This document shows, one piece after another, positions 3,494-26,768 of a stretch of 64,000 bases of DNA. Position numbers and translations under genes: made by a program. Positions within the stretch are counted from its first letter, which is position 1. Each line of letters opens with the position of its first letter. The notes beneath the pieces are model-generated. The model had not been told where the DNA came from, searched no databases, and worked only from the letters and a program-made list of their open reading frames with translations. Source of the DNA: Candidatus Aminicenantes bacterium (lineage in GTDB: Bacteria > Acidobacteriota > Aminicenantia > Aminicenantales > JAFGBC01); contig OY969696.1 in the NCBI GenBank assembly GCA_963702005.1, forward strand, positions 160,001 through 224,000, given 5' to 3'.

Positions 3494-3495
3494 AA

Positions 3496-5478: not shown

Positions 5479-5491
5479 TTTTATCCCCCTT

Positions 5492-5710
5492 TCATAATTT
5501 AAATTTCTCTTCCTTTGAGAAGAAGAATTTTGACTTTGCTTCCTTAACCTTTTTTTCAATTGCTGAAAATATTATATCCACCTCTTCTTCGGTATAATCA
5601 TAATACTGTCTGTTGGCACAGTTAGACAGCACCCTCAGTTTCTGGAGAACCGCATTTGTTCTCGCTGCTGCAATACGCTTAAATCTTTCCTTTGAAGTTT
5701 CTGCTTTCAT
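5492..5710 (-). CDS. Small helical protein leading the defence-like operon
   Basis: 72 aa, GGGGAG RBS, AT-rich upstream region; sequence KERFKRIAAARTNAVLQKLRVLSNCANRQYYDY. Confidence 0.75.
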   Translation of the reverse strand: MKAETSKERFKRIAAARTNAVLQKLRVLSNCANRQYYDYTEEEVDIIFSAIEKKVKEAKSKFFFSKEEKFKL

Positions 5711-6118
5711 AAATTAGTCTCCCCTTAAAATATATATCATATATTTATAACGATTACCGCATTTTTAAATTACTGCATATTTATAAAAATTGAAATGGTT
5801 TCCATGAAAAAATAAAGCGTCAAATCCGTTCATTCGATATTTTACGAAATAGGGAGGTCCAGGGAAATCCGGCCTCCGCCCGCCTCATCACTTCCCAGGA
5901 CGTCCAAATCCAGGGTAAATTTCGCTTCTGCGCATCTTTAAATGGCCGAACAGAACTCCACGACCCACTGGAAACCCGGAAAACAACGGTTTTTGGCCCG
6001 TGGCCGGAAAAACGAGGCTCTAGGAAGCTCGTAGAACAGAGATCTTATATTGGGCAGGGCTTTTGCCTTGGGGATTTTATCCCTTGTCGCCCTGTCAGGT
6101 AATCAGCGAGCACCTGGA

Positions 6119-6340
6119 CTAACGCCACTCGACTATCTTCCTCCATCGTCTTTCCCCGTCCTCTATCTCTCCTTCCATCTGCGCATCAAGACGCTTCCGG
6201 TCAATCCTCCAGCCCACTCCCTTGAGCTTAATGGCTGGCAGCCGGTGGGAACTAATAAGACTGTAAACAGTCATCGGATGGACGGAAAGATATTCGGCCA
6301 CTTCGCGCGGCTTCATCCATCTCCTTTCTCGCTTTTCCAT
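6119..6340 (-). CDS. Excisionase-like MerR/HTH_17 DNA-binding protein
   Basis: WMKPREVAEYLSVHPMTVYSLISSHRLPAIKLKGVGWRIDRKRLD; GGAGG RBS. Confidence 0.88.
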   Translation of the reverse strand: MEKRERRWMKPREVAEYLSVHPMTVYSLISSHRLPAIKLKGVGWRIDRKRLDAQMEGEIEDGERRWRKIVEWR

Positions 6341-6406
6341 TGCGTCCTCCCAAGCGAGAAGCATATTGCGGATTCCGTGTTTGATTCAATTGACCGGCTC
6401 CAAATA

Positions 6407-6415
6407 TGCTATAAT
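6407..6415 (+). promoter_or_regulatory. Extended -10 promoter (TGcTATAAT) upstream of the conserved structured element
   Basis: Exact TGnTATAAT match. Confidence 0.5.
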
Positions 6416-6420
6416 TCATA

Positions 6421-6545
6421 TGGTTCTCTTGTGCCGGCTGGGGAGAGCCCCCACCTTGATGGTTTCCATCAAAACCCCCCTTTTGCTGACACAGCCGGCA
6501 TCTTCTCCAGCATAGAAAGCGACCTGGAACTCCTGAATTCCGAGG
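6421..6545 (+). ncRNA. Putative structured non-coding element, copy A (family unknown, strand inferred)
   Basis: GTGCCGGCTG (6431-6440) pairs with CAGCCGGCAT (6492-6501) around an internal hairpin TTGATGG-TTT-CCATCAA; homologous to 28418-28540. Confidence 0.45.
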
Positions 6546-6672
6546 CAATCCAAGGACTCAAACTTTGGCTACGTAACATATTTAAAGCATCATGCCCCAT
6601 TTATTAACATAATCCTCCCTGCCATTCGCGGACTCGTTCCGTTGGATGGCAGGAATTATCATATTGATTTCT

Positions 6673-7224
6673 ATGACGCACGAAAAATCCGCGATATTCA
6701 TCGACGGAGGGTATCTGAATCAAGTTCTCAAGAAGCATTTTAAGGAAAAGGAAATAGATTTCCTCAAGCTATGCGAGAATATCTGCGAAAAGACAGAAAC
6801 CAAGCGACTGAGGACCTATTACTACCACTGCCTGCCCTTGCAAAGAAAGGACAATACTGAGGACACGCGAAGAATACAGAATATGGAAAAGTTCCTTACA
6901 AAGCTCAGAAGGCTTCCGCGCTTCGAAGTCAAGCTAGGAAGGCTCCAGCTCATCGGCGGTTTCTTCAAGCAGAAGATGGTCGACATTCTCATGTCGCTTG
7001 ATATCGTAGACCTTTGTTACTCTCATCAGATTCAGCACGCAATTCTCGTTGCCGGGGACGCCGATTTCGTCCCAGCGGTCAAACAGGCAAGGGAATCAGG
7101 AGCGATAATCCACCTTTTCTACCATCCCGAGACCGTCCATCACAAGATACTCGACCACGTCGACGAGAGACACGAGCTGACCAACGAATTCATTGAGAAA
7201 TGCAAACAAAAGGAACACTCATGA
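6673..7224 (+). CDS. NYN-domain (LabA/DUF88, PIN-like) ribonuclease
   Basis: IFIDGGY, QKMVDILMSLD, LVAGDADFVPAV. Confidence 0.93.
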   Translation: MTHEKSAIFIDGGYLNQVLKKHFKEKEIDFLKLCENICEKTETKRLRTYYYHCLPLQRKDNTEDTRRIQNMEKFLTKLRRLPRFEVKLGRLQLIGGFFKQKMVDILMSLDIVDLCYSHQIQHAILVAGDADFVPAVKQARESGAIIHLFYHPETVHHKILDHVDERHELTNEFIEKCKQKEHS

Positions 7225-7280
7225 GAGCGGGCCGGGTGCACAACCTTAGATTCTATGGGACCGAGACGATGATCGACAAC

Positions 7281-7472
7281 TGTGCCCAAACTGTGCCCAA
7301 ACCGCGTCTAAAATATCGAAAAACATCAAAGACTATCGAACTCCATCGAAACCTGATTCAGGAGCTAAAATGCAGATTTTCATGAAATAGCCTTATTTTC
7401 CAGGTGTGGGCTTTTTCCGTAGCCGCCTACACACGGTAGGAGTCACAGGTTCAAATCCTGTATCGCCCACCA
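7281..7472 (+). repeat. att-like module 1: arm-type repeats + 10-bp phased repeats + tRNA-Val(CAC) 3' half (7428-7472)
   Basis: TGTGCCCAAACTGTGCCCAAA; aaatatcgaa/aaacatcaaa/gactatcgaa/ctccatcgaa; CACACGGTAGGAGTCACAGGTTCAAATCCTGTATCGCCCACCA with no tRNA 5' half. Confidence 0.9.
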
Positions 7473-7659
7473 TATTCTTTTCAACCACTTGCACGATCCC
7501 GCGTCCCGGTAAAACGACGGGTGTGGCCCCTCCGTCATGATTGCCGGGATTGAATTGCGATGCGGGTGACACGCACCAGAAATCAATATTCAGCCGCCAG
7601 CGCTGCTCCCTCCTTCCCTTTTTCCCCTCTTTGTGCCTAACTTATTTCTTAAGCTGCTT

Positions 7660-7971
7660 CTATAATTTTACTTCACTAATCTGAATCGAGGGCTGGATGT
7701 CGGTGAAGTTTGGAATATCTCCCATAATCGCTTGGGCGTGCGGGCCAAAGGCAGTTTGAAATGACTCTACCGAATCGAAATATAGATGAAACATGACGAG
7801 ATAGGTTGCCCGTGATCCAGGCTCTGCGCCCCCCAGTCCCTGTTCTACGGCCACACGCTTAAACGCAGCCCCTAACTTTTGTTGGATCATGGGGATGTGC
7901 TCATTAAAATAGTACCCCATATCAAATTTTTTGCCTTCTTCATTCGGATAAAACACACTGACTTTGATCAC
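7660..7971 (-). CDS. EthD-family protein
   Basis: VIKVSVFYPN..FDMGYYFNEHIP..DIPNFTDIQPSIQISEV; GTG start after AAGGAGG. Confidence 0.9.
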   Translation of the reverse strand: MIKVSVFYPNEEGKKFDMGYYFNEHIPMIQQKLGAAFKRVAVEQGLGGAEPGSRATYLVMFHLYFDSVESFQTAFGPHAQAIMGDIPNFTDIQPSIQISEVKL

Positions 7972-7987
7972 TTGTCTGTCCTCCTTC

Positions 7988-10900
7988 TTAAGAAAGATCC
8001 TCAAGGAGCGCCTTCGCCCCGATAAGATCGGGAGTGGCGAACCCTTCCGTGAACCAAGAATAAACCTCTTCCAGATTCTTTCTGGCCTCTTCTCGTTTTC
8101 CTTGTCTTTGCCACAAGCGGCTCAAACTCATCACGGCCCTGAGCTCCCATGACTTGGCCAACCGTAGGCGAGAGATCTCAATAGCCTGCTTGAAATACTT
8201 CTCAACTTCTTTCTCGGGCTCACCCCGCATCCGCAATAATTCACCCTTGAGCCGATAGAGCTCGGCTTCCATGTATCTCTCATCATATTTCTCGACGGCT
8301 TCAAAGGCCCAGTCCACGGCAGAAAGACCTTCCTCCAGATCTCCTGCTTTTCGGCAGGCTTCAGCGATCCTCGCCCTCAGACGCGAGAAACAGGTCATGG
8401 TCCCCGTCGCTTCCATGATCGACAAGCTTTGACGCATTTGGGCTATTCCTTCTTTGACCTTTCCCTCGAGAACGGCTCTCTCTCCGCGATAAAAATAGCC
8501 ATGCGCTGCTACGAGTATGAATCCATTTTTCTCGCAGAACGGAACAAGTTCTTCCGTATCCTTGTCGATCCGTGGAAAATTGCCGAGGAACCAATTCAGC
8601 TCGCACGCCGTGAGCAGGGCAAAAGCCAGCGAGTGCGGATGACCTAATTTTCGAGCGATGCTCACCGCTTCATCAAGTTGTCGGAGAGCTTGGTCGGGAT
8701 AGCCAATAATCCACTGCGCCCAAGACCCTAAACCCAGATTGAATACTCCGATATCATAGCCGAAGAGATAAGCCATGAAGCCGAATTTTTCCGGGTCATA
8801 GTTAGCTTTCCAATGTCTGAGGTTTTCCACGCTCTGGACAAGTTCTCCCACATTGAGCAATTCCCAGACGTCGGAATAGTGGGAGATAGCCTCGAGCATC
8901 GGGTTCTTTGACTGTTCGGCTATTGGAATCAACTGCTCTATCATTTTCAGCGATTCTCTGTACTGGGCCGTAGATACATAGTATGTGGCAAGCTGAACGA
9001 GCGCGTAAAACCGCTGAAGTGGATCACCCAATCGATCACTAAGCTCTCTGGCTCGAACGACGACTTGGCCCAATTCCGGAGCACCAAAGCCCTTCGTGGA
9101 CATGAGCGGAACGGCCAGGGCGAGCCGTAAAGCAAGCTCCTGTTGATCACGCTGAGGCGTTTCCGGAAGCTTTTGAAGAAGTCCCAGAGCTTTATGGTAG
9201 TGGGCAATCGCCGCCTCGCCGGCGGACAGCCGGACAGCTTTGTTTCCTGCTTTGTGAAAATAGTCTATGGCCTTCGGCATTATTCCCGCCTCCAGGAAGT
9301 GCCTCGCCAGTTGCACGGCAATCTCTTCAGTCTGCTCTCCGTAAAGGGCTTCTAAAATATTTCCTACTTCTTCGTGAAGTTGCGCTCTCTCCACCTTATC
9401 GAGGCTGTTATAAAGATATCTCTGGAACAGGATGTGCCGGAAAAGATACGAGGATAAGCGCTGTTTTTCGAGCTGCCGGATGCCTTTGGCAGACACCAGA
9501 TGATGCCGTTTATCCAGCTCCCTGCTTAAAAGCTTGATCAGCTCTCGGACCTCTTCTTTCTGGATCCGGGCAACCACCTCGGCCGTAAATTCTTCGCCTT
9601 CGACACTGGCGATCATTAAAATCTCCCGCAATTTTTCATTGAGCCTTTGAACACGCTCTTCAATGACGGCGTCCACGCGCGCCGGGAGCACGTTCCAATC
9701 CAAGGCTGGGCCCTCCATCCATCGGCCGTCCTTATCCCTGACCAAAGCCCCGCGTTCCTCCATGTCCTTCAGCAATTCAACCGTAAAGAGAGGATGTCCT
9801 TTGGTCTGGCTATAGAGCGTCTCCCGGAATTTAGGGCCTAGCCGGTTGGGCTCCGTATCAATATAATCATCCACGAATCGACGGGCTTCCGTTTTTCCAA
9901 CTTCGATCTCAATCTCCCCAAAATCCCGTTTGAGTTCATGAAGAATAGGCTCGAGGGGATGGCGCTCCACTCCCCGGCCCAGAGCAACCTCTGCCGGCCG
10001 CAAAGCCCCGACGATAAGGATCCGGTTCCCCTGAATCCGGCGGCCCAGATGAAAGAGCAAGCTTGCCGAGCCGGGATCGACCCACTGGAGGTCGTCTAGA
10101 ATAAGAAGCAGCGGCTTTTCTTTGGCCAGATCTTGCAGCACTCTGGTGTATTGTTCTAGCAGATTGCTCTGCTGGAGCATCAGATCCGGAGGGAGTGAGG
10201 ACTTTCGCTCCACGAGCTTCTTCAAGCCGGCCAGCCAATATGTCATTCGTGATGAGAAAGCTTCGCTTCGGGATGCCAAGGCTGCTCCGGGGATAAAAAT
10301 ATTGACCAAATCCAGGCCGTTATCCAATAAGGCTTTGACAGAAAGAGGCAGAAGATTCCACAGCCGAAGAGCGTGTTCTCTGGACATGACGCCAGCCGTC
10401 CATTTTGATTCAACGTCTCCGGTCAAAAGACTCAATATCTCGATGAACGGCAGGTAAGGATCTCCGATTCCGGCGTGGGCGTTGCATTTGCCCGAGGCGA
10501 CAATAAGTTCAGGATATGTCTCTTGGACACGCTGGGCAAACTCCTGGACTAAGGCTGTTTTCCCGCTGCCCGCTTCGCCGAGCAGGAAGACCACTTGTCC
10601 CTTGCCGCTAAGGGCGGCCTCGAGTTTCTGATACAGTTTACCCAATTCTTGTTCTCGGGCCACAAAGACCGATCGCTTTAGCGGAGCCTCTTCCACGCCC
10701 TCGCTAAGAAAAGCCGGAATCTTAGGTTTCAGGGCACCCGCTGCCGTCGGTAAACCCTCTTCCAGGCATCTAAATTCCGCCAGCAATTCCTCCGCCGTCT
10801 GGTATCTCTTCTCCCGATCCTTTTCCAGGCATTTCAGGATGACCGTGGTGAGTTCTTCAGAGAGCTGGGGATTGATCTCCTTAGGGCTCAGAGGGAGTTC

Positions 10901-11704
10901 AGCCTTGTGCTTCATGGCGATGATCAAGGCCGTATCGCCCTCAAAGGGAACTCGCCCCGTCACCATTTCATAGAGCGTGGCTCCCAGAGCATAAATGTCC
11001 GATCGCGCGTCCGCTTCCATCCCCCCCACTTGTTCGGGGGACATGTAGTCAGGGGTCCCGATGATCACTCCGGCTTCCGTTACACCTTTGGCGGCCAGTG
11101 ACCGGGCGATGCCAAAGTCCATAATGCGGATATTTCCGTTTTTCTCGATCATGATGTTTTGCGGCTTCAGATCACGATGAACGACACCCAGTCGGTGCGC
11201 CTCCATCAGTCCCTCGCAGACCTTCACGGCTATTGGCACCGCTTCACCTTCAGGCAACCGGCCTGTTCTCGTGATAACGGTCTTTAAATCCTCTCCCGGC
11301 ACATATTCCATTGTGATGAAATAGGTGTCATTTTCCCTGTTGATATCATGCATCCGGCAGACGTTCCGGTGGGTGATCCTGCGTGCGTATTTAAGCTCGT
11401 TCCGGAATCGTTCGATCGTCTTTTCGTCGGAGGCAATTTCAGGGTTCAGGAGCTTGAGGGCCACCTCCTCCTGAATCTCTTTATCTAACACCCTGTAAAC
11501 TTTCCCCATGCCGCCGTGACCGAGTTCTTCGATCACCTCGTATCTTCCCGCGTAGAGGCTCCCTTGGGCAAGCCCGCTGAGAGAAACCTGAAGAGTCCTG
11601 GTGGCGGAAAACGGCTTCTTTTCAGAAAGGGAGAAATCGAACCCGCAGTTTCCGCATAAGCGGGAATCGGAGGGATTCTCAAAGAGACATTTTGGACATT
11701 TCAT
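7988..11704 (-). CDS. Zinc-ribbon Ser/Thr protein kinase fused to a STAND/AAA_16 NTPase and TPR repeats
   Basis: MKCPKC..CGNCG, LGHGGMGKVY, HRDLKPQN, DFG, Walker A GEAGSGKT, Walker B LLILDDLQW, C-terminal TPR region. Confidence 0.95.
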   Translation of the reverse strand: MKCPKCLFENPSDSRLCGNCGFDFSLSEKKPFSATRTLQVSLSGLAQGSLYAGRYEVIEELGHGGMGKVYRVLDKEIQEEVALKLLNPEIASDEKTIERFRNELKYARRITHRNVCRMHDINRENDTYFITMEYVPGEDLKTVITRTGRLPEGEAVPIAVKVCEGLMEAHRLGVVHRDLKPQNIMIEKNGNIRIMDFGIARSLAAKGVTEAGVIIGTPDYMSPEQVGGMEADARSDIYALGATLYEMVTGRVPFEGDTALIIAMKHKAELPLSPKEINPQLSEELTTVILKCLEKDREKRYQTAEELLAEFRCLEEGLPTAAGALKPKIPAFLSEGVEEAPLKRSVFVAREQELGKLYQKLEAALSGKGQVVFLLGEAGSGKTALVQEFAQRVQETYPELIVASGKCNAHAGIGDPYLPFIEILSLLTGDVESKWTAGVMSREHALRLWNLLPLSVKALLDNGLDLVNIFIPGAALASRSEAFSSRMTYWLAGLKKLVERKSSLPPDLMLQQSNLLEQYTRVLQDLAKEKPLLLILDDLQWVDPGSASLLFHLGRRIQGNRILIVGALRPAEVALGRGVERHPLEPILHELKRDFGEIEIEVGKTEARRFVDDYIDTEPNRLGPKFRETLYSQTKGHPLFTVELLKDMEERGALVRDKDGRWMEGPALDWNVLPARVDAVIEERVQRLNEKLREILMIASVEGEEFTAEVVARIQKEEVRELIKLLSRELDKRHHLVSAKGIRQLEKQRLSSYLFRHILFQRYLYNSLDKVERAQLHEEVGNILEALYGEQTEEIAVQLARHFLEAGIMPKAIDYFHKAGNKAVRLSAGEAAIAHYHKALGLLQKLPETPQRDQQELALRLALAVPLMSTKGFGAPELGQVVVRARELSDRLGDPLQRFYALVQLATYYVSTAQYRESLKMIEQLIPIAEQSKNPMLEAISHYSDVWELLNVGELVQSVENLRHWKANYDPEKFGFMAYLFGYDIGVFNLGLGSWAQWIIGYPDQALRQLDEAVSIARKLGHPHSLAFALLTACELNWFLGNFPRIDKDTEELVPFCEKNGFILVAAHGYFYRGERAVLEGKVKEGIAQMRQSLSIMEATGTMTCFSRLRARIAEACRKAGDLEEGLSAVDWAFEAVEKYDERYMEAELYRLKGELLRMRGEPEKEVEKYFKQAIEISRLRLAKSWELRAVMSLSRLWQRQGKREEARKNLEEVYSWFTEGFATPDLIGAKALLEDLS

Positions 11705-11749
11705 GGCCCTCGCCTCCTTTATCTGAGGTATAAAAACCTGGTTATCAAG

Positions 11750-11970
11750 TGACCAGCCCCCCATCAATGCACCAGCCCTTGAGTGAATTTTTCGACCATA
11801 AAGGCCTCTGGAGCCGGCGGCCTGTAGCCTAAGAAGATGTGCGGCCTTAAGCGATTGTATGTCTTTCTCCAGCCCTCCACAAGGACCTTCGCTTCGGCCA
11901 ACGTGTCCAGCACCTCCCCGTTGAGAAGCTCATCCCGGAGCTTCCCGATGAAGGACTCGACGTAGCCATA
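11750..11970 (-). pseudogene. IS3-family transposase C-terminal relic with right end
   Basis: Manual translation GYVESFIGKLRDELLNGEVLDTLAEAKVLVEGWRKTYNRLRPH..LGYRPPAPEA, followed by GGGGGCTGGTCA. Confidence 0.85.
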
Positions 11971-12031
11971 GTAGCCTTAACTTGGTATCTTGCTTCTCCT
12001 GGAACCTTCCAACCTTCCTGTCGTTTACGTT

Positions 12032-12214
12032 TGTGCCCAAAATACGTCAGGAATATCGAAACATATCTAAAGATATCGAACTCCTTCGAAATCCTGGCGC
12101 CCCTGACAAACAAGCCTATTATAGGGGAAATTCCTTATTTTCTGCACGTTAGCTTTTTCCGCTGCTTCCTACACACGGTAGAAGTCAGAGGTTCAAATCC
12201 TCTATCGCCCACCA
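12032..12214 (+). repeat. att-like module 2 with tRNA-Val 3' half (12170-12214)
   Basis: TGTGCCCAAA; four ATCGAA-type 10-mers; CACACGGTAGAAGTCAGAGGTTCAAATCCTCTATCGCCCACCA. Confidence 0.9.
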
Positions 12215-12440
12215 ACCTTATTCCGAAACGATACCATTATCTGGATTCGCCTTGATTACTCAAGGGGGATAAGGGGGGGGTAATATAGCTAAGGATAAAT
12301 CTTGGGGGAATTACGGATTCTTTTGCAGACACTGACATGATTGCTGGCCTCCCCTGATTAGTCAGGACAAGTAGGTGGGATTAATAGTTTAAATAAAAGT
12401 CTTGGAAGTGTCCCGGACATACCATGGCCGCGGATTCCCC

Positions 12441-14939
12441 CTATTTCTTTTTATCCAGGGGGAGGCCTATGCGGCGCAGCAAGGCCTGGTAGCGCGGGTC
12501 GCCGCGCAGGGGGTCCCAGAAAGGCATGCCGATATAGGCTAACTCGGGATCGTGTGCGTCGTAGGCCTTATAGAACCAGTCGATGGTCCGGTCCTTGTCG
12601 CCGGCATCGAAATAACGCAGGGCGATGCCCACGGCGCTGTGATATTCGGACTTTTTATACCGTGCCGCCAGGACGTCGGCGATGCCCCGCTGCGCGCCCT
12701 CGTATCCGCCTTCCGCGAGGCCCCGCTCGAAAGCCGCCAGTCGTTCGGGGTCACGGGCGATCCTCAGTCTCTGGTCGGCCAGCTGCTCGTCGCGCATCCC
12801 CTTGACGATGTAATATCGCTGAATAGCGGTGAAGGCGATCCCCATATCGGGCCTAATGGAGAGTGCGGTGCGGGCGGCGGCGAGGCTGTCGTCATAGCGC
12901 CCGAGGTACTGCAGGACAATCGCGTGCATGCTGTGATACAGCGCGTTGAACGGGTCCAGCTTGAGCGCCCGCTCGATGTGCCGGATCGCCTCGCCCGCGC
13001 GTCCCCTGTGCGCCAGGAAGTGGGAGTAGTACGCGTGCGCGTTGGCGCCGTTGGGATTGAGCTCGAGGGCGCGCTTCCACTCCGGCTCGGCGTCGGCCCA
13101 GTCCCATTCGGACCACGTCATGACCGAGGCCAGGGCTTCGTGCGCCTCCGCGGAGTTGTCATCAAGAGCGAGGCATTGAAGCGCCGCCGCTTTGGCCTTG
13201 GGTCCGGCCTCACTGGCCGGTACGATTGCCATTTGTTGGCGGGCCAGCCAGACCCACGTCAAACCCTCATAAGCCGGGGCGTAGGATGGGTCCTTGACGA
13301 GCGCCTGCTCGAAGCAGCTCTGGGCGGCGTCTAAATCGGCCGGCTTCATCGTCTTCCAGAGGGAAGAGCCCTTGAGATAGGCGCTATAGGCCTCAGGATT
13401 GACCGTCCGGGCAAAGGCCAGGCGGGCCTGCTCGGCCGGGAGCAGCTTGACCGCCAGGGCTTTGGCCACGCTCTGCGCCACCTGGCCCTGCACCGTAAGG
13501 ATGCCCGAGAGATCGTGCTCGTACGTGTTGGCCCAGATCTGCGTCTGGTCGGTCACATGGATCAGCTCGGCGCTGATGCGGACGCGGTTCGCCTCACGCC
13601 GGGCGCTGCCCTCCAGGACGTATTCCACCCCCAGCTCGCGGCCGACCTGGTCGATCGGCGTTTCGGCCTTCTTGTAGCGCATGACCGAAGCGAGGGCGAT
13701 GACGTTTAGGGCCGCGGGATGGAGGCGCCCGAGCTGGGTGATCAACTCCTGCGTAACGCCGTCGGAGAGGACCTCTTGCTCCGGGTCGCCGGACAAGTTC
13801 ACGAACGGCAGCACCGCCAGCCTGATCGCGGGCTCGGCGCGGCCTTTCCTTCCGAAAACCCGATCACGAAAGCCTCCGATGTTGAGGCCGAAGAGGATGA
13901 GGCTGACCGCCAAGGAGGCACGAAGCAGATAAAGTAAATTCCGTCCGAATGCTTTTCCCCTTATCCTTCGCTTGGCCTTGAGCGGCTTGAGTCCTTGGGC
14001 GACGGCCTCGAGGTCCTCCCGAAACTCCTCCATGGTCTGGTAGCGTTGAGCGGGATCCTTAGCCAAAGCTTGGAAGACAATCCGTTCAAGTCCGGGCGGA
14101 AGGCCAGGCCGTGTTTTGCCCAGCGGCTTCGGCTCCCGGTGGAGGATTGCATGGATGACCGTCTGGTCATGATCGCCCTTGAACGGCAGCTCGCCGGCGA
14201 GCATCTCATAAAGCACGACGCCGAGGGACCAGATGTCGGTCCGGCTGTCCAGATCCTCGCCTCGGGCCTGCTCCGGCGACATGTAGGCAACCGTGCCCAG
14301 CGTTGTCTGGGTTTTGGTGAGCGAACTCCCGCCCCGCAGCTTAGCCAGCCCGAAGTCCATCACCTTGGCCTGGCCCTTCTCCGTGACCATGATATTGGCG
14401 CTTTTGATGTCTCGGTGGATGATGCCCTTGACGTGGGCCGCTCCCAGTCCGGCCGCGACCTGGCTGACGATGTCAAGGGCCTCGTCCGGCTTCAGTGGCC
14501 CCCTCTTGATCCTGTCCCGAAGCGTCTCGCCTTCCACATACTCCATGGCGATGTAGGGCCGGTCCTCGCCCTCCCCGACCTCATGGATGACGCAGATGTT
14601 CGGGTGGGAGAGGGCCGCGGCCGCCTGGGCCTCGATGAGGAATCGTTCCCTGAGCTCGACGGAATCCGCCAGTTGCGGCGGAAGGAACTTCAGGGCCACA
14701 ACGCGCTTGAGCCTGATATCTTCAGCCCTAAAGACGACCCCCATCCCGCCCCGCCCGATTTCTTCAACGATCCTGTACTTTCCGGCGATGAGGCTGTCTT
14801 TCGAGATGATGGGAAGAGGGGTAACCAGGGTTTTTGTCAGGGAGGACGGCTCAGGCCCCGCCTCTCCAAGGGGCGTCGCGCAATTGCCGCAGAACCGCGA
14901 GTGTTCCTTGTTCTCGGAATGACATTTCGGGCATTCCAT
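12441..14939 (-). CDS. Zinc-ribbon Ser/Thr protein kinase with TM segment, TolB-N-like and TPR domains
   Basis: MECPKC, IGRGGMGVV, HRDIKSAN, DFG, RLAVLPFVNLSGDPEQE, TPRs. Confidence 0.95.
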   Translation of the reverse strand: MECPKCHSENKEHSRFCGNCATPLGEAGPEPSSLTKTLVTPLPIISKDSLIAGKYRIVEEIGRGGMGVVFRAEDIRLKRVVALKFLPPQLADSVELRERFLIEAQAAAALSHPNICVIHEVGEGEDRPYIAMEYVEGETLRDRIKRGPLKPDEALDIVSQVAAGLGAAHVKGIIHRDIKSANIMVTEKGQAKVMDFGLAKLRGGSSLTKTQTTLGTVAYMSPEQARGEDLDSRTDIWSLGVVLYEMLAGELPFKGDHDQTVIHAILHREPKPLGKTRPGLPPGLERIVFQALAKDPAQRYQTMEEFREDLEAVAQGLKPLKAKRRIRGKAFGRNLLYLLRASLAVSLILFGLNIGGFRDRVFGRKGRAEPAIRLAVLPFVNLSGDPEQEVLSDGVTQELITQLGRLHPAALNVIALASVMRYKKAETPIDQVGRELGVEYVLEGSARREANRVRISAELIHVTDQTQIWANTYEHDLSGILTVQGQVAQSVAKALAVKLLPAEQARLAFARTVNPEAYSAYLKGSSLWKTMKPADLDAAQSCFEQALVKDPSYAPAYEGLTWVWLARQQMAIVPASEAGPKAKAAALQCLALDDNSAEAHEALASVMTWSEWDWADAEPEWKRALELNPNGANAHAYYSHFLAHRGRAGEAIRHIERALKLDPFNALYHSMHAIVLQYLGRYDDSLAAARTALSIRPDMGIAFTAIQRYYIVKGMRDEQLADQRLRIARDPERLAAFERGLAEGGYEGAQRGIADVLAARYKKSEYHSAVGIALRYFDAGDKDRTIDWFYKAYDAHDPELAYIGMPFWDPLRGDPRYQALLRRIGLPLDKKK

Positions 14940-15016
14940 GACACCCTCACATTGCCGATGCCCGAATCGTATCACCGCCGGAGCGGCCGGTCAATCGAGA
15001 AACACGTTCTTTCGGC

Positions 15017-15209
15017 TGTACCCAAATCGTGCCCAAAAAATGTCAGAAATATCGAAGACTATCGAAAGATATCAAAATCCATCGAAATCCTGGAGCCCAT
15101 AAAACAGTCCTATTACAGAGGGAATCCCTTTATTATCTGCGCTTTAGGTTTTTCCACCGCTTCCTACACACGGTAGAAGTCAGAGGCTCAAATCTTCTAT
15201 CGCCCACCA
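15017..15209 (+). repeat. att-like module 3 with a decayed tRNA-Val 3' half (15165-15209)
   Basis: TGTACCCAAATCGTGCCCAAA; four phased 10-mers; CACACGGTAGAAGTCAGAGGCTCAAATCTTCTATCGCCCACCA. Confidence 0.9.
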
Positions 15210-15381
15210 TCTTGTTATCAATAACTCGCCTGATTCCTTTATCGGGCAAAATCGCGGTCGTGCCTAAATCCGAACCAGCGAGCCGTTCTGCTTCTCCTTT
15301 CTGCCGTTAGCGTCCGACTCTGGGGAGAGGAAGTTCCCGTAATTCCTCATGTCTTTGGCAACGCCGCCTTGTCACGGTTAG

Positions 15382-16848
15382 TTAAACCTTAAACTCATTC
15401 AACCAAGTAATGAACTCCGCCCATTTTTTTCGCCAAAACTCTAAAGCTCTCTCTTTTTCCTCGGGATCCATAGCCGAGTAGATGAGTGAGTTCATCGCCA
15501 ACTGCTTAAGGCATTTCAAATCCAATTCCCACGCCATGAACGCAGCGTAGAAATCATAAGAAAACGTGCATTTCCATATGCCTGGATCATCGGGACAAAT
15601 GACAACTGGCAGGCCGCTGTTGATATAGAGCACAGCGGGGTGATTGCGAAGATCGGCGACATAACCGAGAACTTGGTTGCTGATTGGACAGACCTCAATG
15701 GCGATACCCCGTTCTTTCACCATTTGCATGAGGAGAGGATGCTTGAAAAGCGCGATACCATGGCCTATCCGCCTGGCATCAAGGAGAATGGCATCTAGAA
15801 CATTTTCGTTTTCCGTCCAGTTGCTTTCGCCGGAATGAATGTATAGGGGCAAGCTGAGATTGCGCTGTTCCGCCTTATGGCCTGCTTCAATAAGTTCATT
15901 GATAAAATAAAGATTCGTATGGCATTTGTCCTCTTCCTCCATCAGATCATAACCAATAATAAGACCTGGGTTTGCCGCTCGTTGATCCAGGGCTTGACTC
16001 AAGTTCTCGGCGATTCGCTCCCGGGGAGCGGAGCGGGGAGAGGAAAATATGTATTTGACCTTAAATTCCGGATGGTCGCGCTGTATCTCCTTTATGATTT
16101 CCTGACTCCCTAGGTCACCCCGGGTCTCGACATACTGCACGTTTTCCGTGATCAAATCTCCAAGCATTTTGCGGCAAAAGCCACTCCAGATCTCATTACT
16201 GAATAGGCCCATAGACCTAGCGAAACATTTTCTGAATTCAGCCCAGATATCCGGCTGGCCAAGATCTTCTTCACCGAGAGTTACAGCTTGGTAGAGCTCT
16301 TCATCAAATTCCTCAACATTATCTGCGGCTTTGCGGAGGTCGCTGACGAGGCGCCAGCCTTCTCCAGGCGGTTCCCTAGAGATCCTCATGGACCCTTTGC
16401 GAGGCGGTTCCTCCTCTCCTTGGTAAATATAACAGTTCTGCAGATAAGTCGCATGCTTAACAAGCCAGTGGAAGTCTCCCATGGCAAAACCGTGGCCATG
16501 AAGAATTCCCCCTTTAGGCATGCGCTTCATGATTTTCAGTATGGAAGATTGGTCGATCAGTTGTCTTGTTTTGTATTTCAGAAAACTATGTGCTGGGGGA
16601 AAATATTCATGAGTTCGTTCTATTTCCTCCTGCTTGAGCAACATCAGCCGACGGTTCGCCTCCTCCTCTTCGGGCACAAGCTTGATTCCGGCATCGATTC
16701 TCATCGCCAGCTCGGCCTGAATCACTCGTTTTCTCACTTTCATATAATCATCGACATCTTCATAACGCCTTTGAACAAAACTATCCTTCTGTTGTAGAAA
16801 TCCGCAAAAGAAAAGCGAACATACGAAAAATATAAAACCGCGTTTCAT
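15382..16848 (-). CDS. Secreted adenosine deaminase, ADA2/ADGF-like
   Basis: Signal peptide; MPKGGILHGH, HSGE, RIGHG, EVCPISNQVL, DLRNHP, DDPG. Confidence 0.9.
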   Translation of the reverse strand: MKRGFIFFVCSLFFCGFLQQKDSFVQRRYEDVDDYMKVRKRVIQAELAMRIDAGIKLVPEEEEANRRLMLLKQEEIERTHEYFPPAHSFLKYKTRQLIDQSSILKIMKRMPKGGILHGHGFAMGDFHWLVKHATYLQNCYIYQGEEEPPRKGSMRISREPPGEGWRLVSDLRKAADNVEEFDEELYQAVTLGEEDLGQPDIWAEFRKCFARSMGLFSNEIWSGFCRKMLGDLITENVQYVETRGDLGSQEIIKEIQRDHPEFKVKYIFSSPRSAPRERIAENLSQALDQRAANPGLIIGYDLMEEEDKCHTNLYFINELIEAGHKAEQRNLSLPLYIHSGESNWTENENVLDAILLDARRIGHGIALFKHPLLMQMVKERGIAIEVCPISNQVLGYVADLRNHPAVLYINSGLPVVICPDDPGIWKCTFSYDFYAAFMAWELDLKCLKQLAMNSLIYSAMDPEEKERALEFWRKKWAEFITWLNEFKV

Positions 16849-17040
16849 AATTCTACCTCCTTTCATTGCATCTCAGATGGATCAAAGAGGAATTCATGGT
16901 TAGCGGATTAAGTTCCTATAACAATTATCACCACGGGAAATGGGATGTCAATTGAATGGAAAAGCAGATCTCCCGCTCCAAGTGACCATGTGTCACAGGA
17001 TATACAGATTTTGCTTAGAATCGCTTCTAGATTGACAAGT

Positions 17041-17200
17041 TGTGCCCAAACTGCGCCCAAAAATATCAAAAAAGATCGAGAGCCAAAGAGCCCTAAAAAA
17101 TCATTATTTACAACGAAAACCCCTTATTTTCTGCGCTTTCTCTTCAGGCGTGGCTTCCTTCACACGGTAGAAGTCAGAGGTTCAAATCCTCTATCGCCCA
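17041..17200 (+). repeat. att-like module 4 with tRNA-Val 3' half lacking CCA (17159-17200)
   Basis: TGTGCCCAAACTGCGCCCAAA; two phased 10-mers; TTCACACGGTAGAAGTCAGAGGTTCAAATCCTCTATCGCCCA. Confidence 0.88.
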
Positions 17201-17240
17201 TCCTCTTCTTTTAAAACTAATTTGAAATGAAGAAGTTAGG

Positions 17241-18676
17241 GGGTTCCCGTAAGGACATCGCTAAGTGAATAACCGTAAGGACATCGATAAGCGATTTGCT
17301 CATCGCTTAAACTCTTTCCCATTCCAGTGGGAAGGAGATCTTTGCGGTGAGCATCAAGAGCGAATATGAGACTCGGAAGAAAGCCATTGAAAATTACTAT
17401 GATGGGATTGGGTTTAACGAAATCCTCCGCACCGTCCATCGGAGCGGCTTTTGGCTCTCCAAATGGCTCAATCGCCATCGAAAATTCGGGCTTGATGGGC
17501 TTCGCGACCAAAGTCGGGTACCGAGACATATCCCCCATCAAACGCGGGAGCCCTTGGTCCGGAAAATCCTGGTCCTGCGCGACGAACTGGCGGCCCACAA
17601 GACCCGTCGCGCCGTTTTTGCCGGCATCGGCGCCGAAACGATCCATTTCGAGCTTCAGCGACGGGGCGTCCGCCAGCTTCCCGCCATCTCGACCATCGAG
17701 AAGATCCTGGCCCGCGCCGGACGAACGAAAAAGGCCAAGGCCAAACGCTCCTCCAACGGGCCTCCCTATCCCTACGTCCCGGCCCGTAAGATGGGCGACC
17801 TTCAGCAAACCGACCTGGTCGGGCCCCGTCATCTCCGCGGTCCTGCGGGAGTCACCCGCTTCTACTCCATCCACACCATCGACGCCGCCGGACAGACCAC
17901 TGCGGCCAGCCAGGTCCGCGACAAGAGAACGATCTCGCTCTGCCGTCATCTGGTTGATTCCTGGCAAGTTATGGGGCTTCCCCGAATCTCCCAGATGGAC
18001 AACGAGATGGCCGCGACGGGAGGGGGACGGTATCGCTACAGTCTCTCTCAGCTCATCCGGCTCCATCTTTTGTTGGGCATCCAGCTTCGCTTCATTCCCC
18101 CGAAAGAACCCGGCCGCAACGCCGCTATCGAAAGCTTCAATGCGGTCTGGCAGGCGCGGGTGCTCCGTCATCCCTGTCCGGATCTTCGGTCCTTGCGCCG
18201 CACGAGCGAACGATTCCTCCGCTACTACCACTTCGAGAAGCCGAATCGAAGCCTCCGGGCAACCGATCACGGCACCCGCTTTCCCGGCCAACTCCGCGAC
18301 CGGCTCTGGTCCGCACTTCGTCATCTCCCATCCGCCTTCAATCTCGATCAGCATCTCGATTCCCGGGGACACCTCGATCTGCCGATCGCCAAGGGCTGCG
18401 TCTCGTTCGTCCGCAAGGTGGATGCCCACGGTTGCATCGAATTCAACGGCGCCGCGTATTTCATCCTCCGTAGACTGGAACGACAGTACGTCGTGGCCAC
18501 ACTCTCGACGTACCATCGCAGAGTCTTCGTCAAGTACGAGGGGAAGGTTATCAAGACGTTTCCTTTTCCGTTCGTCGGTAAAGTCGTCGATCCGATCGCT
18601 TGAAGGCCGATCAGTTATCGATGTCCTTACGGTTTCACTCATTAAGAAACGCTTATCGATGTCCTTACGGCTGCCA
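17241..18676 (+). mobile_element. IS481-family insertion sequence
   Basis: CCGTAAGGACATCG occurs twice at the left end and twice inverted at the right end; flanking 6-mers GTTAGG / GCTAGG are a probable TSD with one mismatch. Confidence 0.8.
17347..18603 (+). CDS. DDE transposase (HTH + rve integrase core)
   Basis: KWLNRHRKFGLDGLRDQSRVP, QTD, QMDN, RNAAIESFNAVWQ. Confidence 0.9.
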   Translation: MSIKSEYETRKKAIENYYDGIGFNEILRTVHRSGFWLSKWLNRHRKFGLDGLRDQSRVPRHIPHQTREPLVRKILVLRDELAAHKTRRAVFAGIGAETIHFELQRRGVRQLPAISTIEKILARAGRTKKAKAKRSSNGPPYPYVPARKMGDLQQTDLVGPRHLRGPAGVTRFYSIHTIDAAGQTTAASQVRDKRTISLCRHLVDSWQVMGLPRISQMDNEMAATGGGRYRYSLSQLIRLHLLLGIQLRFIPPKEPGRNAAIESFNAVWQARVLRHPCPDLRSLRRTSERFLRYYHFEKPNRSLRATDHGTRFPGQLRDRLWSALRHLPSAFNLDQHLDSRGHLDLPIAKGCVSFVRKVDAHGCIEFNGAAYFILRRLERQYVVATLSTYHRRVFVKYEGKVIKTFPFPFVGKVVDPIA

Positions 18677-18826
18677 GCTAGGCAATATTATTTTGTTCGG
18701 CTTGGATAATAAAGTTGCGTTGCGCTTCCTTCCAAGAGTAGAAGGCAGAATGATTGACGCTCAATCGCCAACCAAATGATTTAGCTGCAACTTGGTCAGT
18801 TTCTAGAATCCTTCTTTTTGCTCACA

Positions 18827-18985
18827 GTGGCCACGATTGTGGCTACTCTGACGTTCTGCCGGTCAACAACCTTCTTGAGATTCTCGTCCAAAAAGGTGTG
18901 AGCAGAAATGCCTGGTGATGAGTCCGGCAAGCTCTTCGCTGACGGGACTCATGCGCTCACCCGTTTTGGGCTTCCAATCAATCTA
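18827..18985 (-). pseudogene. Possible decayed tyrosine-integrase relic with arm-like repeats
   Basis: Fragments IDWKPKTGERMSPVSEEL and AHTFLDENLKKVVD; repeats GTGGCCAC (18827) / GTGGCTAC (18839). Confidence 0.35.
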
Positions 18986-19197
18986 TTCCCTTATAGAAAT
19001 CCTCCGAATTCGCAAACTGCGTGAGATTGAACCCAGATCCTAGGATTCCCTAGCGGGTCTTGAATTACTTGAAAATTAGGCTTTTAATAATAGATCATGC
19101 AGGCGGATATTCTTGGGCGCTTCCGCCTTGGAGTAAGCAACGGAAAGGCAATCAAGAAGCAACGCTATCGCTGATAATAAACAAAGGAGCATGCAGA

Positions 19198-20826: not shown

Positions 20827-20914
20827 TAGCCCGCCCGGCGTATTTCTTGAAAAGGCCTTAGATCAGGGCGTTAGTCCGGTGGCCTTCCCGGGTTTTCTGG
20901 CCGATGAATAGGCA

Positions 20915-22003: not shown

Positions 22004-22015
22004 GGAGATGGGATC

Positions 22016-23778: not shown

Positions 23779-23838
23779 TGTTGCCGCCCTTGGCGACGAA
23801 GTTGCTGGCGAATGTGTGCCTGAGATCGTGAAGCCGGT
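23770..23838 (-). pseudogene. Tyrosine-integrase box II relic
   Basis: Manual translation HRLHDLRHTFASNFVAKGGNIIS (HxLRH motif). Confidence 0.8.
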
Positions 23839-23881
23839 GACCTACAGAGACAGGCTGGTGGACTGATATAGAAAAATATTT

Positions 23882-26593: not shown

Positions 26594-26603
26594 ACGATCT
26601 TAT

Positions 26604-26617
26604 TTAGGCATGCCTAA
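26604..26617. promoter_or_regulatory. DtxR-family operator palindrome TTAGGCATGCCTAA
   Basis: Perfect 14-bp palindrome 10 bp upstream of the regulator start; resembles TTAGG-N-CCTAA DtxR/SirR boxes. Confidence 0.8.
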
Positions 26618-26664
26618 GTATTTAAGTTAAGAAGATATATTATAATTGAGGTTGTGTCAACCTT

Positions 26665-26768
26665 TCGACTCCCCGGCACGAATGCCGGGGCTTGTTCAGG
26701 GTTAACCCTGAGCCTCGCCTCTCGTCCCCGCCTTGAAAGGCGGGGCTTGGCGTCGGCGAGCGGGTCAA
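26665..26768 (+). mobile_element. IS200/IS605-derived MITE (PATE-like), copy 1
   Basis: Two hairpins CCCCGGC..GCCGGGG and CCCCGCC-TTGAAA-GGCGGGG; ends in TCAA; near-identical to 33315-33417. Confidence 0.8.

What the first reader, a model, noticed from the sequence alone, without database searches (positions are those of the whole stretch)
7281..17200. Integron-like array of integrase-free gene cassettes punctuated by tRNA-Val att modules
Seen: four homologous, co-oriented modules (7281-7472, 12032-12214, 15017-15209, 17041-17200). Each is built as TGTGCCCAAA repeat(s), then up to four 10-bp-phased ATCGAA-like repeats, then a T-rich spacer, then the 3' half of tRNA-Val(CAC) starting in the anticodon loop. 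The intervals (about 4.6, 2.8 and 1.8 kb) hold only 1-2 cargo genes (EthD + kinase-STAND-TPR; kinase-TPR; ADA2-like deaminase). All cargo is on the minus strand and none encodes an integrase. Known: lambda-type tyrosine integrases that target tRNA anticodon loops use arm sites, Xis and IHF sites and regenerate a tRNA 3' half, and tandem insertions leave attP-like junctions. Inference: these are minimal non-autonomous cassettes captured or shuffled in trans by one integrase, i.e. a tRNA-att-based gene-acquisition array rather than an attC integron. The alternative is tandem islands that each decayed by deletion.
Basis: partly seen in the sequence, partly recalled or inferred. Interest (0 to 1): 0.88.

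Follow-up and report, generated by a model that had tools for sequence, protein, structure and literature searches.

The report
Integrase-less gene cassettes stacked behind tRNA-Val
Behind one valine tRNA gene this bacterium has stacked a large mobile island and a row of small gene packets that have lost their own integrase but still carry its docking sites, a known way of building genomic islands seen here in a compact form.

Summary
Four co-oriented modules (7281-7472, 12032-12214, 15017-15209, 17041-17203) share one layout: a TGTGCCCAAA dyad, ATCNAA repeats spaced exactly 10 bp, a spacer, and the tRNA-Val(CAC) 3' part starting at the anticodon. I also found a P-arm-only copy (31603-31684) and a core remnant (38261-38312).

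The live tRNA and a 385-aa tyrosine integrase lie 78 kb to the left. The integrase's last codons overlap the tRNA, and the same dyad sits on its P' side. No integrase lies between the modules.

Best reading: a tandem-accretion array. Related elements integrated one after another at the tRNA, and most are now integrase-less, att-bounded (CIME-like) units.
- A same-genus genome has an empty site.
- 34 of 246 genomes of the order carry the arm dyad.
- 48 module-to-module intervals have a median of 2.7 kb.
- Only 3 of 201 genomes hold an intact cognate integrase; at least 9 hold C-terminal remnants.
- Cargo is shared across families at 77-95% nt identity, in a different order.

The integron-like reading is only partly supported. 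Most arrays have no integrase, cargo orientation is mixed, left boundaries are not conserved, and illegitimate deletions are visible. Whether the cassettes are mobilised in trans or in cis is untested.

The parts
1..7280 (.). Right end of the 78-kb integrase-bearing island E1 (genome 89.5-167.5 kb). It holds HATPase_c_3, a C5 DNA methylase, an excisionase-family HTH protein (6119-6364, minus) and an NYN protein (6646-7224, plus).
   Evidence: Pfam, NCBIfam, PADLOC. The island's left end, with the tRNA and the integrase, is at genome 89457-90645.
6119..6364 (-). 81-aa HTH_17 / excisionase-family protein, a candidate recombination directionality factor.
   Evidence: PF12728 E 1.2e-12. TIGR01764 scores 46.3 bits, above its cut-off of 28.8. 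There is also a weak hit to mad1 below its cut-off, so the role as an RDF is inferred.
7281..7472 (+). Module M1, the attR of E1: arm dyad 7281-7301, ATCNAA x4 at 7315-7350, tRNA 3' part 7430-7472. An integrase-3'/P' remnant follows to about 7527.
   Evidence: 43/43 identical to the live tRNA. tblastn matches integrase residues 355-385.
7660..11767 (-). Cassette 1 cargo: EthD (7660-8004) and a Pkinase-AAA_16(STAND)-TPR protein (7988-11767).
   Evidence: The kinase gene is 86.7% nt identical to one in the array of G023.
12032..12214 (+). Module M2: a single arm decamer, ATCNAA x4, tRNA 3' part 12172-12214.
12441..14975 (-). Cassette 2 cargo: a zinc-ribbon-Pkinase-TPR protein.
   Evidence: The gene plus module M3 is 77.4% nt identical to cassette 3 of G023.
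15017..15209 (+). Module M3: arm dyad, ATCNAA x4, tRNA 3' part 15167-15209. One P'-type decamer (CGTGCCTAAA) lies at +49.
   Evidence: tblastn matches integrase residues 350-385.
15382..16866 (-). Cassette 3 cargo: ADA2/ADGF-like adenosine deaminase.
   Evidence: Pfam. TIGR01431 scores 364 bits against a cut-off of 315. Its 3' end is 88.8% nt identical to a metagenome array, L115.
17041..17203 (+). Module M4: arm dyad, ATCNAA x2, tRNA 3' part 17161-17203 whose end reads ...CCCATCC.
17204..31602 (.). Unit 4 (14.4 kb, no integrase): an unknown ORF, peptidase C69, ZnuA, ABC-3, FeoB, NifB/X-like protein and others. The block 19058-26660 is 93-95% nt identical to one near the tRNA-Val of G017.
31603..31684 (+). 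Truncated module: P arm only (arm dyad plus ATCNAA x4), with no core.
31685..38260 (.). Unit 5 (6.6 kb): an amidohydrolase, an N-terminal kinase fragment (32860-33252), an epimerase, a PAP2 protein.
38261..38312 (+). Decayed tRNA-Val 3' remnant (T arm and acceptor) with no P arm.
   Evidence: 32/43 to the G001 tRNA allele.

Best explanation
This is a tandem-accretion array at tRNA-Val(CAC).

How it was built. Related integrative elements of one tyrosine-integrase family inserted one after another into the anticodon loop of the tRNA. Each newcomer supplied a new tRNA 3' half and pushed the older elements to the right. Each junction therefore reads: P arm of the left element (integrase arm-type dyad TGTGCCCAAA x2, four 10-bp-phased ATCNAA repeats that probably bind the excisionase, an A/T-rich spacer), then the displaced tRNA 3' half, then whatever is left of the next element's P' arm and integrase 3' end.

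What is there now. The newest element is a 78-kb island that still has the integrase. The older ones have lost the integrase and most of their backbone. They survive as compact units of 1-2 genes bounded by att sites, which fits the definition of CIME-like elements.

What could still happen. The resident integrase could recombine the tRNA-proximal attL with any of the internal modules. It could then carry cassettes away in cis, or excise them in trans.

Shown: the anatomy, the integrase and its overlap with the tRNA, the absence of integrase from the units, the empty site in a congener, horizontal sharing of cargo, integrase remnants in relatives, and deletions in relatives.

Inferred: which proteins bind which repeats, the crossover position, the order of arrival, and any present-day mobility.
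For: (1) Integrase and sites.
- An intact tRNA-Val(CAC) lies at genome 89457-89531. A 385-aa integrase (PF00589, E 6e-29) lies at 89488-90645 on the opposite strand. Its last ~15 codons are the complement of the tRNA 3' half, and this is conserved in 3 of 3 orthologues.
- The decamer dyad is on both arms: -192/-181 before the core in the modules, +49/+61 after the live tRNA, and three copies in L030.

(2) Serial replacement of the tRNA 3' half.
- The same-genus genome G001 has the T-stem allele CAGAGG/CCTCT, as do M2-M4 and the last remnant. The live G000 tRNA and M1 have CACAGG/CCTGT.

(3) Empty site.
- In G001 the tRNA is followed after 136 nt by the homologue of G000 position 216190. About 126.6 kb is therefore an insertion in G000.

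(4) Recurrence.
- 9 of 40 relatives have full modules.
- The exact arm dyad is in 34 of 246 genomes of the order and in 0 reversed-pattern controls.
- 20 full modules from 11 genomes share the architecture.
- 48 module-to-module intervals on 23 contigs of 19 genomes have a median of 2703 nt, and 42 of 48 are 6.6 kb or shorter.

(5) Decay.
- A full-length cognate integrase is in only 3 of 201 genomes (G000, G187, G186).
- C-terminal remnants lie beside cores in G076, G021, G028, G102, G022, G024, G050, G189 and G200, several with stop codons.
- Truncated kinase genes lie at window 32860-33252 and in G022 and G023.
- Two contigs that are 99.8% identical differ at a breakpoint outside any att site.

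(6) Horizontal origin of cargo.
- Cassette genes are 77-95% nt identical between families whose conserved flank proteins are only 56-66% identical.
- The order of the two kinase cassettes is swapped between G000 and G023.

(7) Literature.
- This is the CIME/accretion scheme as defined in PMC5704250 (passages read).
Against: - The units are unusually small and tidy (1-2 intact genes, few pseudogene scraps). Only 7 of 48 intervals keep an integrase remnant that reaches further N-terminal than residue 345. Random deletion from the parents seen so far (over 10 kb, 21 kb and 78 kb) does not predict this by itself.
- The P arms of integrase-less units are still complete in 20 modules, and the arm dyad is the best conserved part. 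This could mean continued selection for recombination.
- No intact small parent (integrase plus 1-3 genes) was found.
- Contig lengths and my way of choosing loci bias the interval sizes downward.
- No recombination products were seen or could be seen. Only assembled contigs of public runs were available.
Confidence: 0.7

Rival explanations
1. A dedicated, integron-like cassette system. The compact integrase-less units are the primary mobile entities. Each carries a full P arm plus core, and a rare helper integrase shared across the community excises, captures and shuffles them in trans.
For: - Units are compact, with a median of 2.7 kb.
- 20 modules keep complete P arms, and the arm dyad is the most conserved part.
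- Accessory cargo is very diverse: kinases, hydrolases, MacB/PadR, ECF sigma, methyltransferase, ADH.
- Cargo is shared across families, and in a different order.
- A metagenome array (L115) puts side by side an ADH cassette known from G022 and the ADA gene known from G000.
- In the G000 cassettes all 4 ORFs are co-oriented.
Against: - There is no integrase beside most arrays. G023 (a complete genome) and G133 (85% complete MAG; found with the G000 integrase protein as query only) have none of this family, and 0 of 29 module-bearing metagenome loci has a full one.
- Integrase remnants lie inside arrays.
- Orientation is mixed overall, 91 against 55.
- P' arm sites are missing from M2 and M4.
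- The left boundaries of orthologous cargo are not conserved in 3 of 3 comparisons.
- The same cargo also occurs near the tRNA without any modules, in G017, G187 and G231.
Confidence: 0.17
2. The array arose by local tandem duplication or unequal homologous crossing-over of one module-containing segment. It did not arise by repeated site-specific integration.
For: - The two kinase genes are paralogues.
- G133 holds a 350-nt tandem duplication that includes a module, at 93% identity.
- The direct repeats would allow unequal crossing-over.
Against: - The modules in G000 differ from each other as much as from modules in other families (70-85%).
- The cargo genes are unrelated (EthD, deaminase, kinases), and the two kinases share only about 39% identity.
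- The cargo has closer relatives in other families than within the genome.
- The T-stem alleles differ by compensatory changes.
Confidence: 0.05
3. The modules are mainly regulatory leaders or promoters, or tRNA-like RNAs, that serve the adjacent minus-strand genes. They are not recombination sites.
For: - The 5' ends of the cargo genes lie 42-265 nt from the P arm.
- The leader between the kinase start codon and the arm dyad is conserved between G000 and G023.
Against: - Promoter-like sites are not enriched: 7 found against 6.4 expected.
- There is no Rfam or tRNA call.
- The same decamer dyad lies beside the integrase gene and beside distant integrases in 15 of the 51 dyad-bearing metagenome loci that lack a module hit.
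- The modules end exactly with a tRNA 3' half that matches the integration target.
Confidence: 0.03

Closest known systems
CIMEs and tandem accretion of ICE/IME-type elements (the ICESt1/ICESt3 model in Streptococcus thermophilus). Definition read in PMC5704250 (passages). The primary papers, Pavlovic 2004 and Bellanger 2011, were seen only as references there.
   Same: Units have lost their integration genes but keep att sites on both sides. They sit in tandem with a related integrase-bearing element at the 3' part of a target gene. The origin is integration, then decay, then a new integration. Cis-mobilisation of the composite is possible.
   Different: Here up to 4-6 very small units (1-5 kb) stand in a row. 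The target is the anticodon loop of tRNA-Val. No conjugation genes were recognised in the helper island. The arrays recur across an order of mostly uncultured bacteria. Mobilisation is untested.
Tycheposon-built genomic islands of Prochlorococcus (bioRxiv 10.1101/2020.12.28.424599; passages read; supplements closed).
   Same: Tyrosine-recombinase elements integrate repeatedly at one tRNA. Newcomers push older elements further into the island. Partial tRNAs and fragmented integrases are left scattered through it. The cargo is nutrient-uptake and accessory genes.
   Different: The integrase family and the host phylum are different. I did not test homology to tycheposon integrases. The complete P arm (arm dyad plus four phased repeats) at each junction, and the prevalence of Ser/Thr kinase cargo, are specific to this system.
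Integrons (IntI, attI, attC cassettes). From general knowledge, not from a call.
   Same: Arrays of small, mostly single-gene, integrase-less units are separated by recombination sites. The cargo is a diverse set of accessory genes.
   Different: There is no array-adjacent integrase with attI and Pc. The sites are about 190-bp attP-type junctions with arm repeats and a tRNA half, not folded single-strand attC sites. Cassettes can have their own promoter-like sites. Orientation is not uniform across relatives.
Tandem ssrA-targeting genomic islands of Dehalococcoides (PMC3146451; only the search listing and the start of the abstract were seen).
   Same: Site-specific islands stack at a single small-RNA gene.
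   Different: I did not read how many of those islands lack integrases. The target gene and the host are different.
Lambda-type attP organisation and tRNA anticodon-loop integration sites. From general knowledge of lambda Int/Xis/IHF and of the sublocation classes of tRNA integration sites; recalled, not from a call.
   Same: Arm-type repeats lie on both sides of a core. Phased repeats lie between the P-arm sites and the core, where Xis binds in lambda. The shared block starts in the anticodon loop and runs to the 3' end. The integrase gene abuts the P' arm.
   Different: The integrase reading frame runs into the core, so its C-terminus is encoded by the tRNA complement. Protein binding was not tested.

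Membership tests
CIME-like element / tandem-accretion array | The unit is flanked on both sides by att sites produced by site-specific integration. | tested here: met
   Each of the three compact units lies between two modules that end in the tRNA-Val 3' part. The attL with the live tRNA is at genome 89457-89602.
CIME-like element / tandem-accretion array | The unit lacks its own integration (and transfer) genes. | tested here: met
   No PF00589 match between genome 167 and 198 kb. tblastn with the cognate integrase finds only the last 31-36 residues at M1 and M3.
CIME-like element / tandem-accretion array | The unit derives from an autonomous element by decay. | tested here: inconclusive
   C-terminal integrase remnants lie beside cores in at least 9 relatives, and truncated cargo is seen. 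For the G000 units themselves only 15-20 codons survive beyond the tRNA, and these overlap the P' arm sites.
CIME-like element / tandem-accretion array | A related element integrated in tandem can mobilise the unit in cis. | not testable with these tools
   The arrangement is present: an integrase-bearing island directly upstream with matching att sites. No reads were available to show composite circles.
Integron | An IntI-type integrase lies adjacent to the array, with attI and the promoter Pc. | tested here: not met
   The only cognate integrase is 78 kb away, at the far end of another island. G023 and G133 arrays have none (G133 is an 85% complete MAG and was searched with the G000 integrase protein only). 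The NCBIfam integron-integrase models score far below their cut-offs: 88 against 265 bits and 42 against 435 bits.
Integron | attC sites (short imperfect palindromes) bound each cassette. | tested here: not met
   The junctions are about 190-bp attP-like modules with direct arm repeats and a tRNA half.
Integron | Cassettes have a uniform orientation. | tested here: not met
   4 of 4 ORFs are co-oriented in the G000 compact units, but over 48 intervals the count is 91 opposite and 55 the same way. The ORFs come from a longest-ORF heuristic, not from gene calls.
Arm-site-dependent (lambda-type) tyrosine integrase system targeting a tRNA anticodon loop | A tyrosine recombinase with a catalytic domain and a SAM-like core-binding domain. 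| tested here: met
   PF00589 E 6e-29 and PF13102/PF02899 over residues 62-159. The N-terminal ~60 residues match no Pfam family, so their role as an arm-binding domain is inferred.
Arm-site-dependent (lambda-type) tyrosine integrase system targeting a tRNA anticodon loop | The block shared between attP-type sites and the tRNA begins in the anticodon loop and runs to the 3' end. | tested here: met
   43 nt from C34 to the CCA end are 38-43/43 identical. Position 33 varies among 20 modules.
Arm-site-dependent (lambda-type) tyrosine integrase system targeting a tRNA anticodon loop | Arm-type repeats lie on both the P and P' arms and are bound by the integrase. | tested here: inconclusive
   The sequence repeats are on both arms. 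The same dyad lies beside distant integrase genes in 15 of the 51 dyad-bearing metagenome loci that lack a module hit. Binding is not testable here.
Arm-site-dependent (lambda-type) tyrosine integrase system targeting a tRNA anticodon loop | A recombination directionality factor (excisionase). | tested here: inconclusive
   The 81-aa protein passes the TIGR01764 domain cut-off. It also weakly resembles mad1 of a methylation-linked defence system and sits next to a methylase.

The most novel reading that the evidence does not exclude
The compact units are not wreckage. They are a community-wide pool of non-autonomous tRNA-att cassettes. Each keeps a complete P arm (integrase dyad plus four phased excisionase-type repeats) because a rare helper integrase, intact in only 3 of 201 genomes searched, still excises, captures and reshuffles it in trans. 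That would be a double-strand, arm-site-dependent analogue of the integron, operating at tRNA-Val across a whole bacterial order.
Probability: 0.17. Interest if true: 0.85.

Novelty: new member of a known kind. Interest (0 to 1): 0.5.

Why it matters
The locus is a clean natural example of how a tRNA gene becomes a growing island.
- The live tRNA, the newest element with its integrase, four or more stripped-down units, and a congener with the empty site are all available for comparison.
- The junctions keep the full set of presumptive protein-binding repeats. The system is therefore well suited to test whether integrase-less remnants stay recombination-competent.
- The same test would show how cargo (here mostly Ser/Thr kinases and small metabolic genes) spreads between families of uncultured bacteria.
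- If the cassettes prove mobile in trans, this would be a second, mechanistically different route to integron-like gene capture.

Tried and rejected
- Public reads. Only Logan contigs of wetland and sediment metagenomes hold parts of the stretch, with a best share of 0.43. The contigs laid on it are 200-1250 nt long. The listed joints fall in conserved kinase motifs or come from other, more abundant organisms. Nothing can be said about circles, deletions or empty sites.
- Rfam and ARAGORN on the window: no hits.
- Promoter and terminator scan: no enrichment.
- IMG/VR scan with the arm dyad: 41 loci, none with a real module. It gives no support for a phage-borne form.
- The search for related loci with three integrases: only 3 close loci. 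Their record titles disagree on taxonomy, so I name no taxon.
- A small autonomous parent (integrase plus 1-3 genes plus P arm): none found.
- PADLOC: the kinase domains hit PD-T4-6 models, but only over the generic kinase domain, and the genome has about 28 such kinases. I therefore reject a defence label.
Supplements are closed; the supplement of the tycheposon preprint lists tandem examples that I could not compare.
Full report
OBSERVATION

The four modules are real. They align over about 190 nt and form repeat families D2 and D4. A profile built from them hits the 4.31-Mb single-contig genome only at this locus:
- M1-M4, E 8e-54 to 3e-78;
- the live tRNA with its downstream flank, E 3e-23;
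- a P-arm-only copy at window 31601-31684, E 3e-14;
- a tRNA-3' remnant at 38261-38312, E 7e-6.

Each full module has the same parts:
- a TGTGCCCAAA-type decamer, twice in an 11-bp register (once in M2);
- ATCNAA repeats spaced exactly 10 bp (four in M1, M2, M3 and the 31603 copy; two in M4);
- a spacer that ends in a conserved TTATTTTC box;
- the last 43 nt of tRNA-Val(CAC), from the anticodon C34 to CCA. M1 matches the live tRNA at 43/43, M2 at 40/43, M3 and M4 at 38/43.

Position 33 differs from the tRNA and varies among 20 modules from 11 genomes. The shared block therefore starts in the anticodon loop.

THE INTEGRASE AND THE LIVE SITE

ARAGORN finds no tRNA in the window. In the genome the only canonical tRNA-Val(CAC) is at 89457-89531, co-oriented with the modules and 78 kb left of M1.
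- A 385-aa tyrosine recombinase (89488-90645, opposite strand; PF00589 plus SAM-like domains) ends inside the tRNA. Its last ~15 residues are encoded by the complement of the tRNA 3' half. This holds in all three full-length orthologues.
- The same decamer dyad lies 49 and 61 nt after the tRNA, inside the 3' end of the integrase gene. A further orthologue has three copies there.
- The dyad is therefore on both arms of a reconstructed attP, as expected of arm-type sites.
- The ATCNAA repeats sit between the P-arm dyad and the core. In lambda that is where Xis binds (general knowledge).
- An 81-aa protein of the excisionase family is encoded 0.9 kb left of M1. It could instead belong to the neighbouring methylase-linked defence genes.
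- No tyrosine recombinase lies between genome 167 and 198 kb.
- With the cognate integrase as query, only its last 31-36 residues are found at M1 and M3. That stretch is the tRNA overlap plus 15-20 codons, which also carry the P' sites.

EXTENT AND HISTORY OF THE LOCUS

The same-genus genome G001 has the conserved upstream flank at 85% nt identity and the tRNA. After 136 nt it continues with the homologue of G000 position 216190, which is window 56190. About 126.6 kb is therefore an insertion in G000, and G001 shows an empty site.

G001's tRNA has the T-stem allele CAGAGG/CCTCT. M2-M4 and the last remnant share that allele. The live G000 tRNA and M1 have the compensatory allele CACAGG/CCTGT. 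This is what serial integration predicts, because each arrival replaces the 3' half of the tRNA and displaces the old one to the right.

Reading from the tRNA, the locus is:
- E1, 78 kb, with the integrase; a heterogeneous accessory and defence island;
- M1, then EthD plus the STAND kinase;
- M2, then the TPR kinase;
- M3, then the deaminase;
- M4, then a 14.4-kb unit with metal-uptake genes;
- a truncated P arm, then a 6.6-kb unit;
- a core remnant, then about 18 kb more without recognisable att sites.

RELATIVES

- In 40 relatives of the same order, 9 have full modules.
- The exact arm dyad occurs in 34 of 246 genomes and never in the reversed control.
- In a metagenome scan, 29 of 80 dyad-bearing loci hold modules.
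- G023, a complete genome, has the tRNA, three full modules and a terminal core, at intervals of 2.9, 4.9, 2.7 and 6.4 kb. G133 has six modules within 20 kb.
- Over 48 module-to-module intervals on 23 contigs of 19 genomes the median is 2703 nt, and 42 of 48 are at most 6.6 kb. One interval holds a complete integrase (the 21-kb element of G187, which has a primase next to the integrase). Seven hold integrase remnants.
- These loci were chosen because modules lay close together on often short contigs, so large intervals are under-sampled.
- The cargo is diverse: many TPR and STAND kinases, M29 peptidase, glyoxalase, BNR proteins, alpha/beta hydrolases, MacB permeases with PadR, an ECF sigma/anti-sigma pair, a methyltransferase, an alcohol dehydrogenase, an isochorismatase, an amidohydrolase, a LuxR regulator and a transglutaminase.
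- Orientation is biased but not uniform: 91 ORFs opposite to the tRNA and 55 the same way.

EVIDENCE FOR HORIZONTAL MOVEMENT OF CARGO

- The conserved genes upstream of the tRNA are 56-66% identical in protein between G000 and members of other families.
- The STAND-kinase gene is 86.7% nt identical between G000 and G023. The TPR-kinase gene plus its upstream module is 77.4% identical between the same two genomes.
- The two cassettes stand in opposite order in the two arrays.
- Window 19058-26660 is 93-95% nt identical to a block 1.27 kb downstream of the tRNA-Val of G017. That block has no modules around it.
- A metagenome array (L115) holds an ADH cassette 87% identical to one in G022. About 1 kb further on it holds the 3' end of the deaminase gene, 89% identical to that of G000.

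EVIDENCE FOR DECAY AND AGAINST A DEDICATED CASSETTE MACHINE

- A full-length cognate integrase is present in 3 of 201 genomes (G000, G187, G186), plus one further MAG contig.
- High-identity C-terminal pieces (55-80% identity, starting between residues 199 and 320, several with stop codons) lie beside cores in G076, G021, G028, G102, G022, G024, G050, G189 and G200. G010's copy is cut by a contig end.
- No cognate integrase was found in G023 or G133. G133 is an 85% complete MAG and was searched with the G000 integrase protein only. None of the 29 module-bearing metagenome loci has a full one.
- N-terminal kinase fragments lie in the arrays of G000 (32860-33252), G022 and G023.
- Two contigs that are 99.8% identical diverge at the start codon of a cargo gene, not at a module. 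One of them carries a truncated kinase there.
- Orthologous cargo keeps its promoter-side neighbour, the P arm, in the TPR-kinase case. The stretch between the tRNA-proximal core and the gene end is not alignable in 3 of 3 comparisons. Independent deletions next to the core predict this. A cassette moving as a site-bounded unit does not.
- P' arm decamers survive only in part: one copy after M3, a degenerate one after M1, and none after M2 or M4.

WHAT REMAINS ODD

- The units are small and tidy.
- The P arms of integrase-less units are complete, and the dyad is their best conserved part.
- No small autonomous parent was found.
- A plausible addition to simple decay is site-specific trimming. 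Recombination between attL and the first internal module would remove the integrase-bearing part precisely and leave the distal cargo behind. A newcomer could later leave together with distal cassettes, as in the accretion and cis-mobilisation scheme (PMC5704250). This is inference.

COMPARISON WITH WHAT IS KNOWN

- The tycheposon preprint describes the same dynamics at Prochlorococcus tRNA genes: repeated integration, older elements pushed inward, partial tRNAs and fragmented integrases (passages read; supplements closed).
- The integron comparison fails on the integrase position, the site type and the orientation.

VERDICT

- Tandem accretion with decay and possible cis or trans mobilisation: confidence 0.7.
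- A true trans-acting cassette system: 0.17.
- Local duplication: 0.05.
- Regulatory modules: 0.03.

This is a new member of a known kind. Interest is 0.5, because the anatomy is unusually complete and directly testable.

Noticed in passing
window 19058-26660: A 7.6-kb block (peptidase C69, an unknown ORF, ZnuA, ABC-3, FeoB, a 329-aa ORF) is 93-95% nt identical to a block 1.27 kb downstream of the tRNA-Val(CAC) of G017. G017 belongs to another family, whose flank proteins are only 56-63% identical. No att modules bound the block in G017. Its left edge coincides with the start codon of the C69 gene.
   Followed up: partly
window 26656-26768 and 33306-33417: A hairpin-rich repeat of about 113 nt. 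Its first ~75 nt belong to a dispersed family with more than 25 copies in the genome (seen as many hits). One copy sits exactly at the right edge (26660) of the block shared with G017.
   Followed up: no
window 38313-56190: The same-genus genome G001 resumes synteny only at window ~56190. The G000-specific insertion behind the tRNA is therefore about 126.6 kb and runs 18 kb beyond the last recognisable core. A very weak core-like remnant lies at window 46420-46444.
   Followed up: partly
window 3-6364: A gene run that looks like a methylation-linked defence system: HATPase_c_3 protein (weak hits to type II restriction enzyme models), a C5 methylase (DrmMII/type II MTase models), two ORFs matching no family, and an HTH protein that weakly resembles mad1.
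   Followed up: partly
L124, L131, L155, L165; G125 contigs C60/C117/C175, G134:C42, G058:C70: A recurrent short module form in which the arm dyad is fused directly to the tRNA core, without the ATCNAA repeats and the spacer (profile positions ~50-158 are missing). It is seen in several genomes and metagenome contigs.
   Followed up: no
metagenome loci L109, L111, L113, L116, L118, L126, L138, L144, L145, L151, L157, L158, L162, L176, L181: The exact 21-nt arm dyad also lies next to tyrosine integrases that are only 20-38% identical to the one here. A wider integrase clade may use the motif.
   Followed up: no
G133:C13 (L056) 17884-18579; G071:C97 (L060) 6439-6935: Two modules stand back to back with no cargo between them. 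In G133 this is a 350-nt tandem duplication at 93% identity.
   Followed up: partly
genome-wide: The genome encodes about 28 Hanks-type Ser/Thr kinases, many above 900 aa. Kinase-TPR and kinase-STAND genes are the commonest cargo of the tRNA-Val arrays in relatives, usually with their start 40-230 nt from a P arm.
   Followed up: partly
window 40478-45741: Repeat pairs D1, D3 and D7 (70-78% identical, spaced ~1.9-4 kb) suggest tandem paralogous genes to the right of the array.
   Followed up: no
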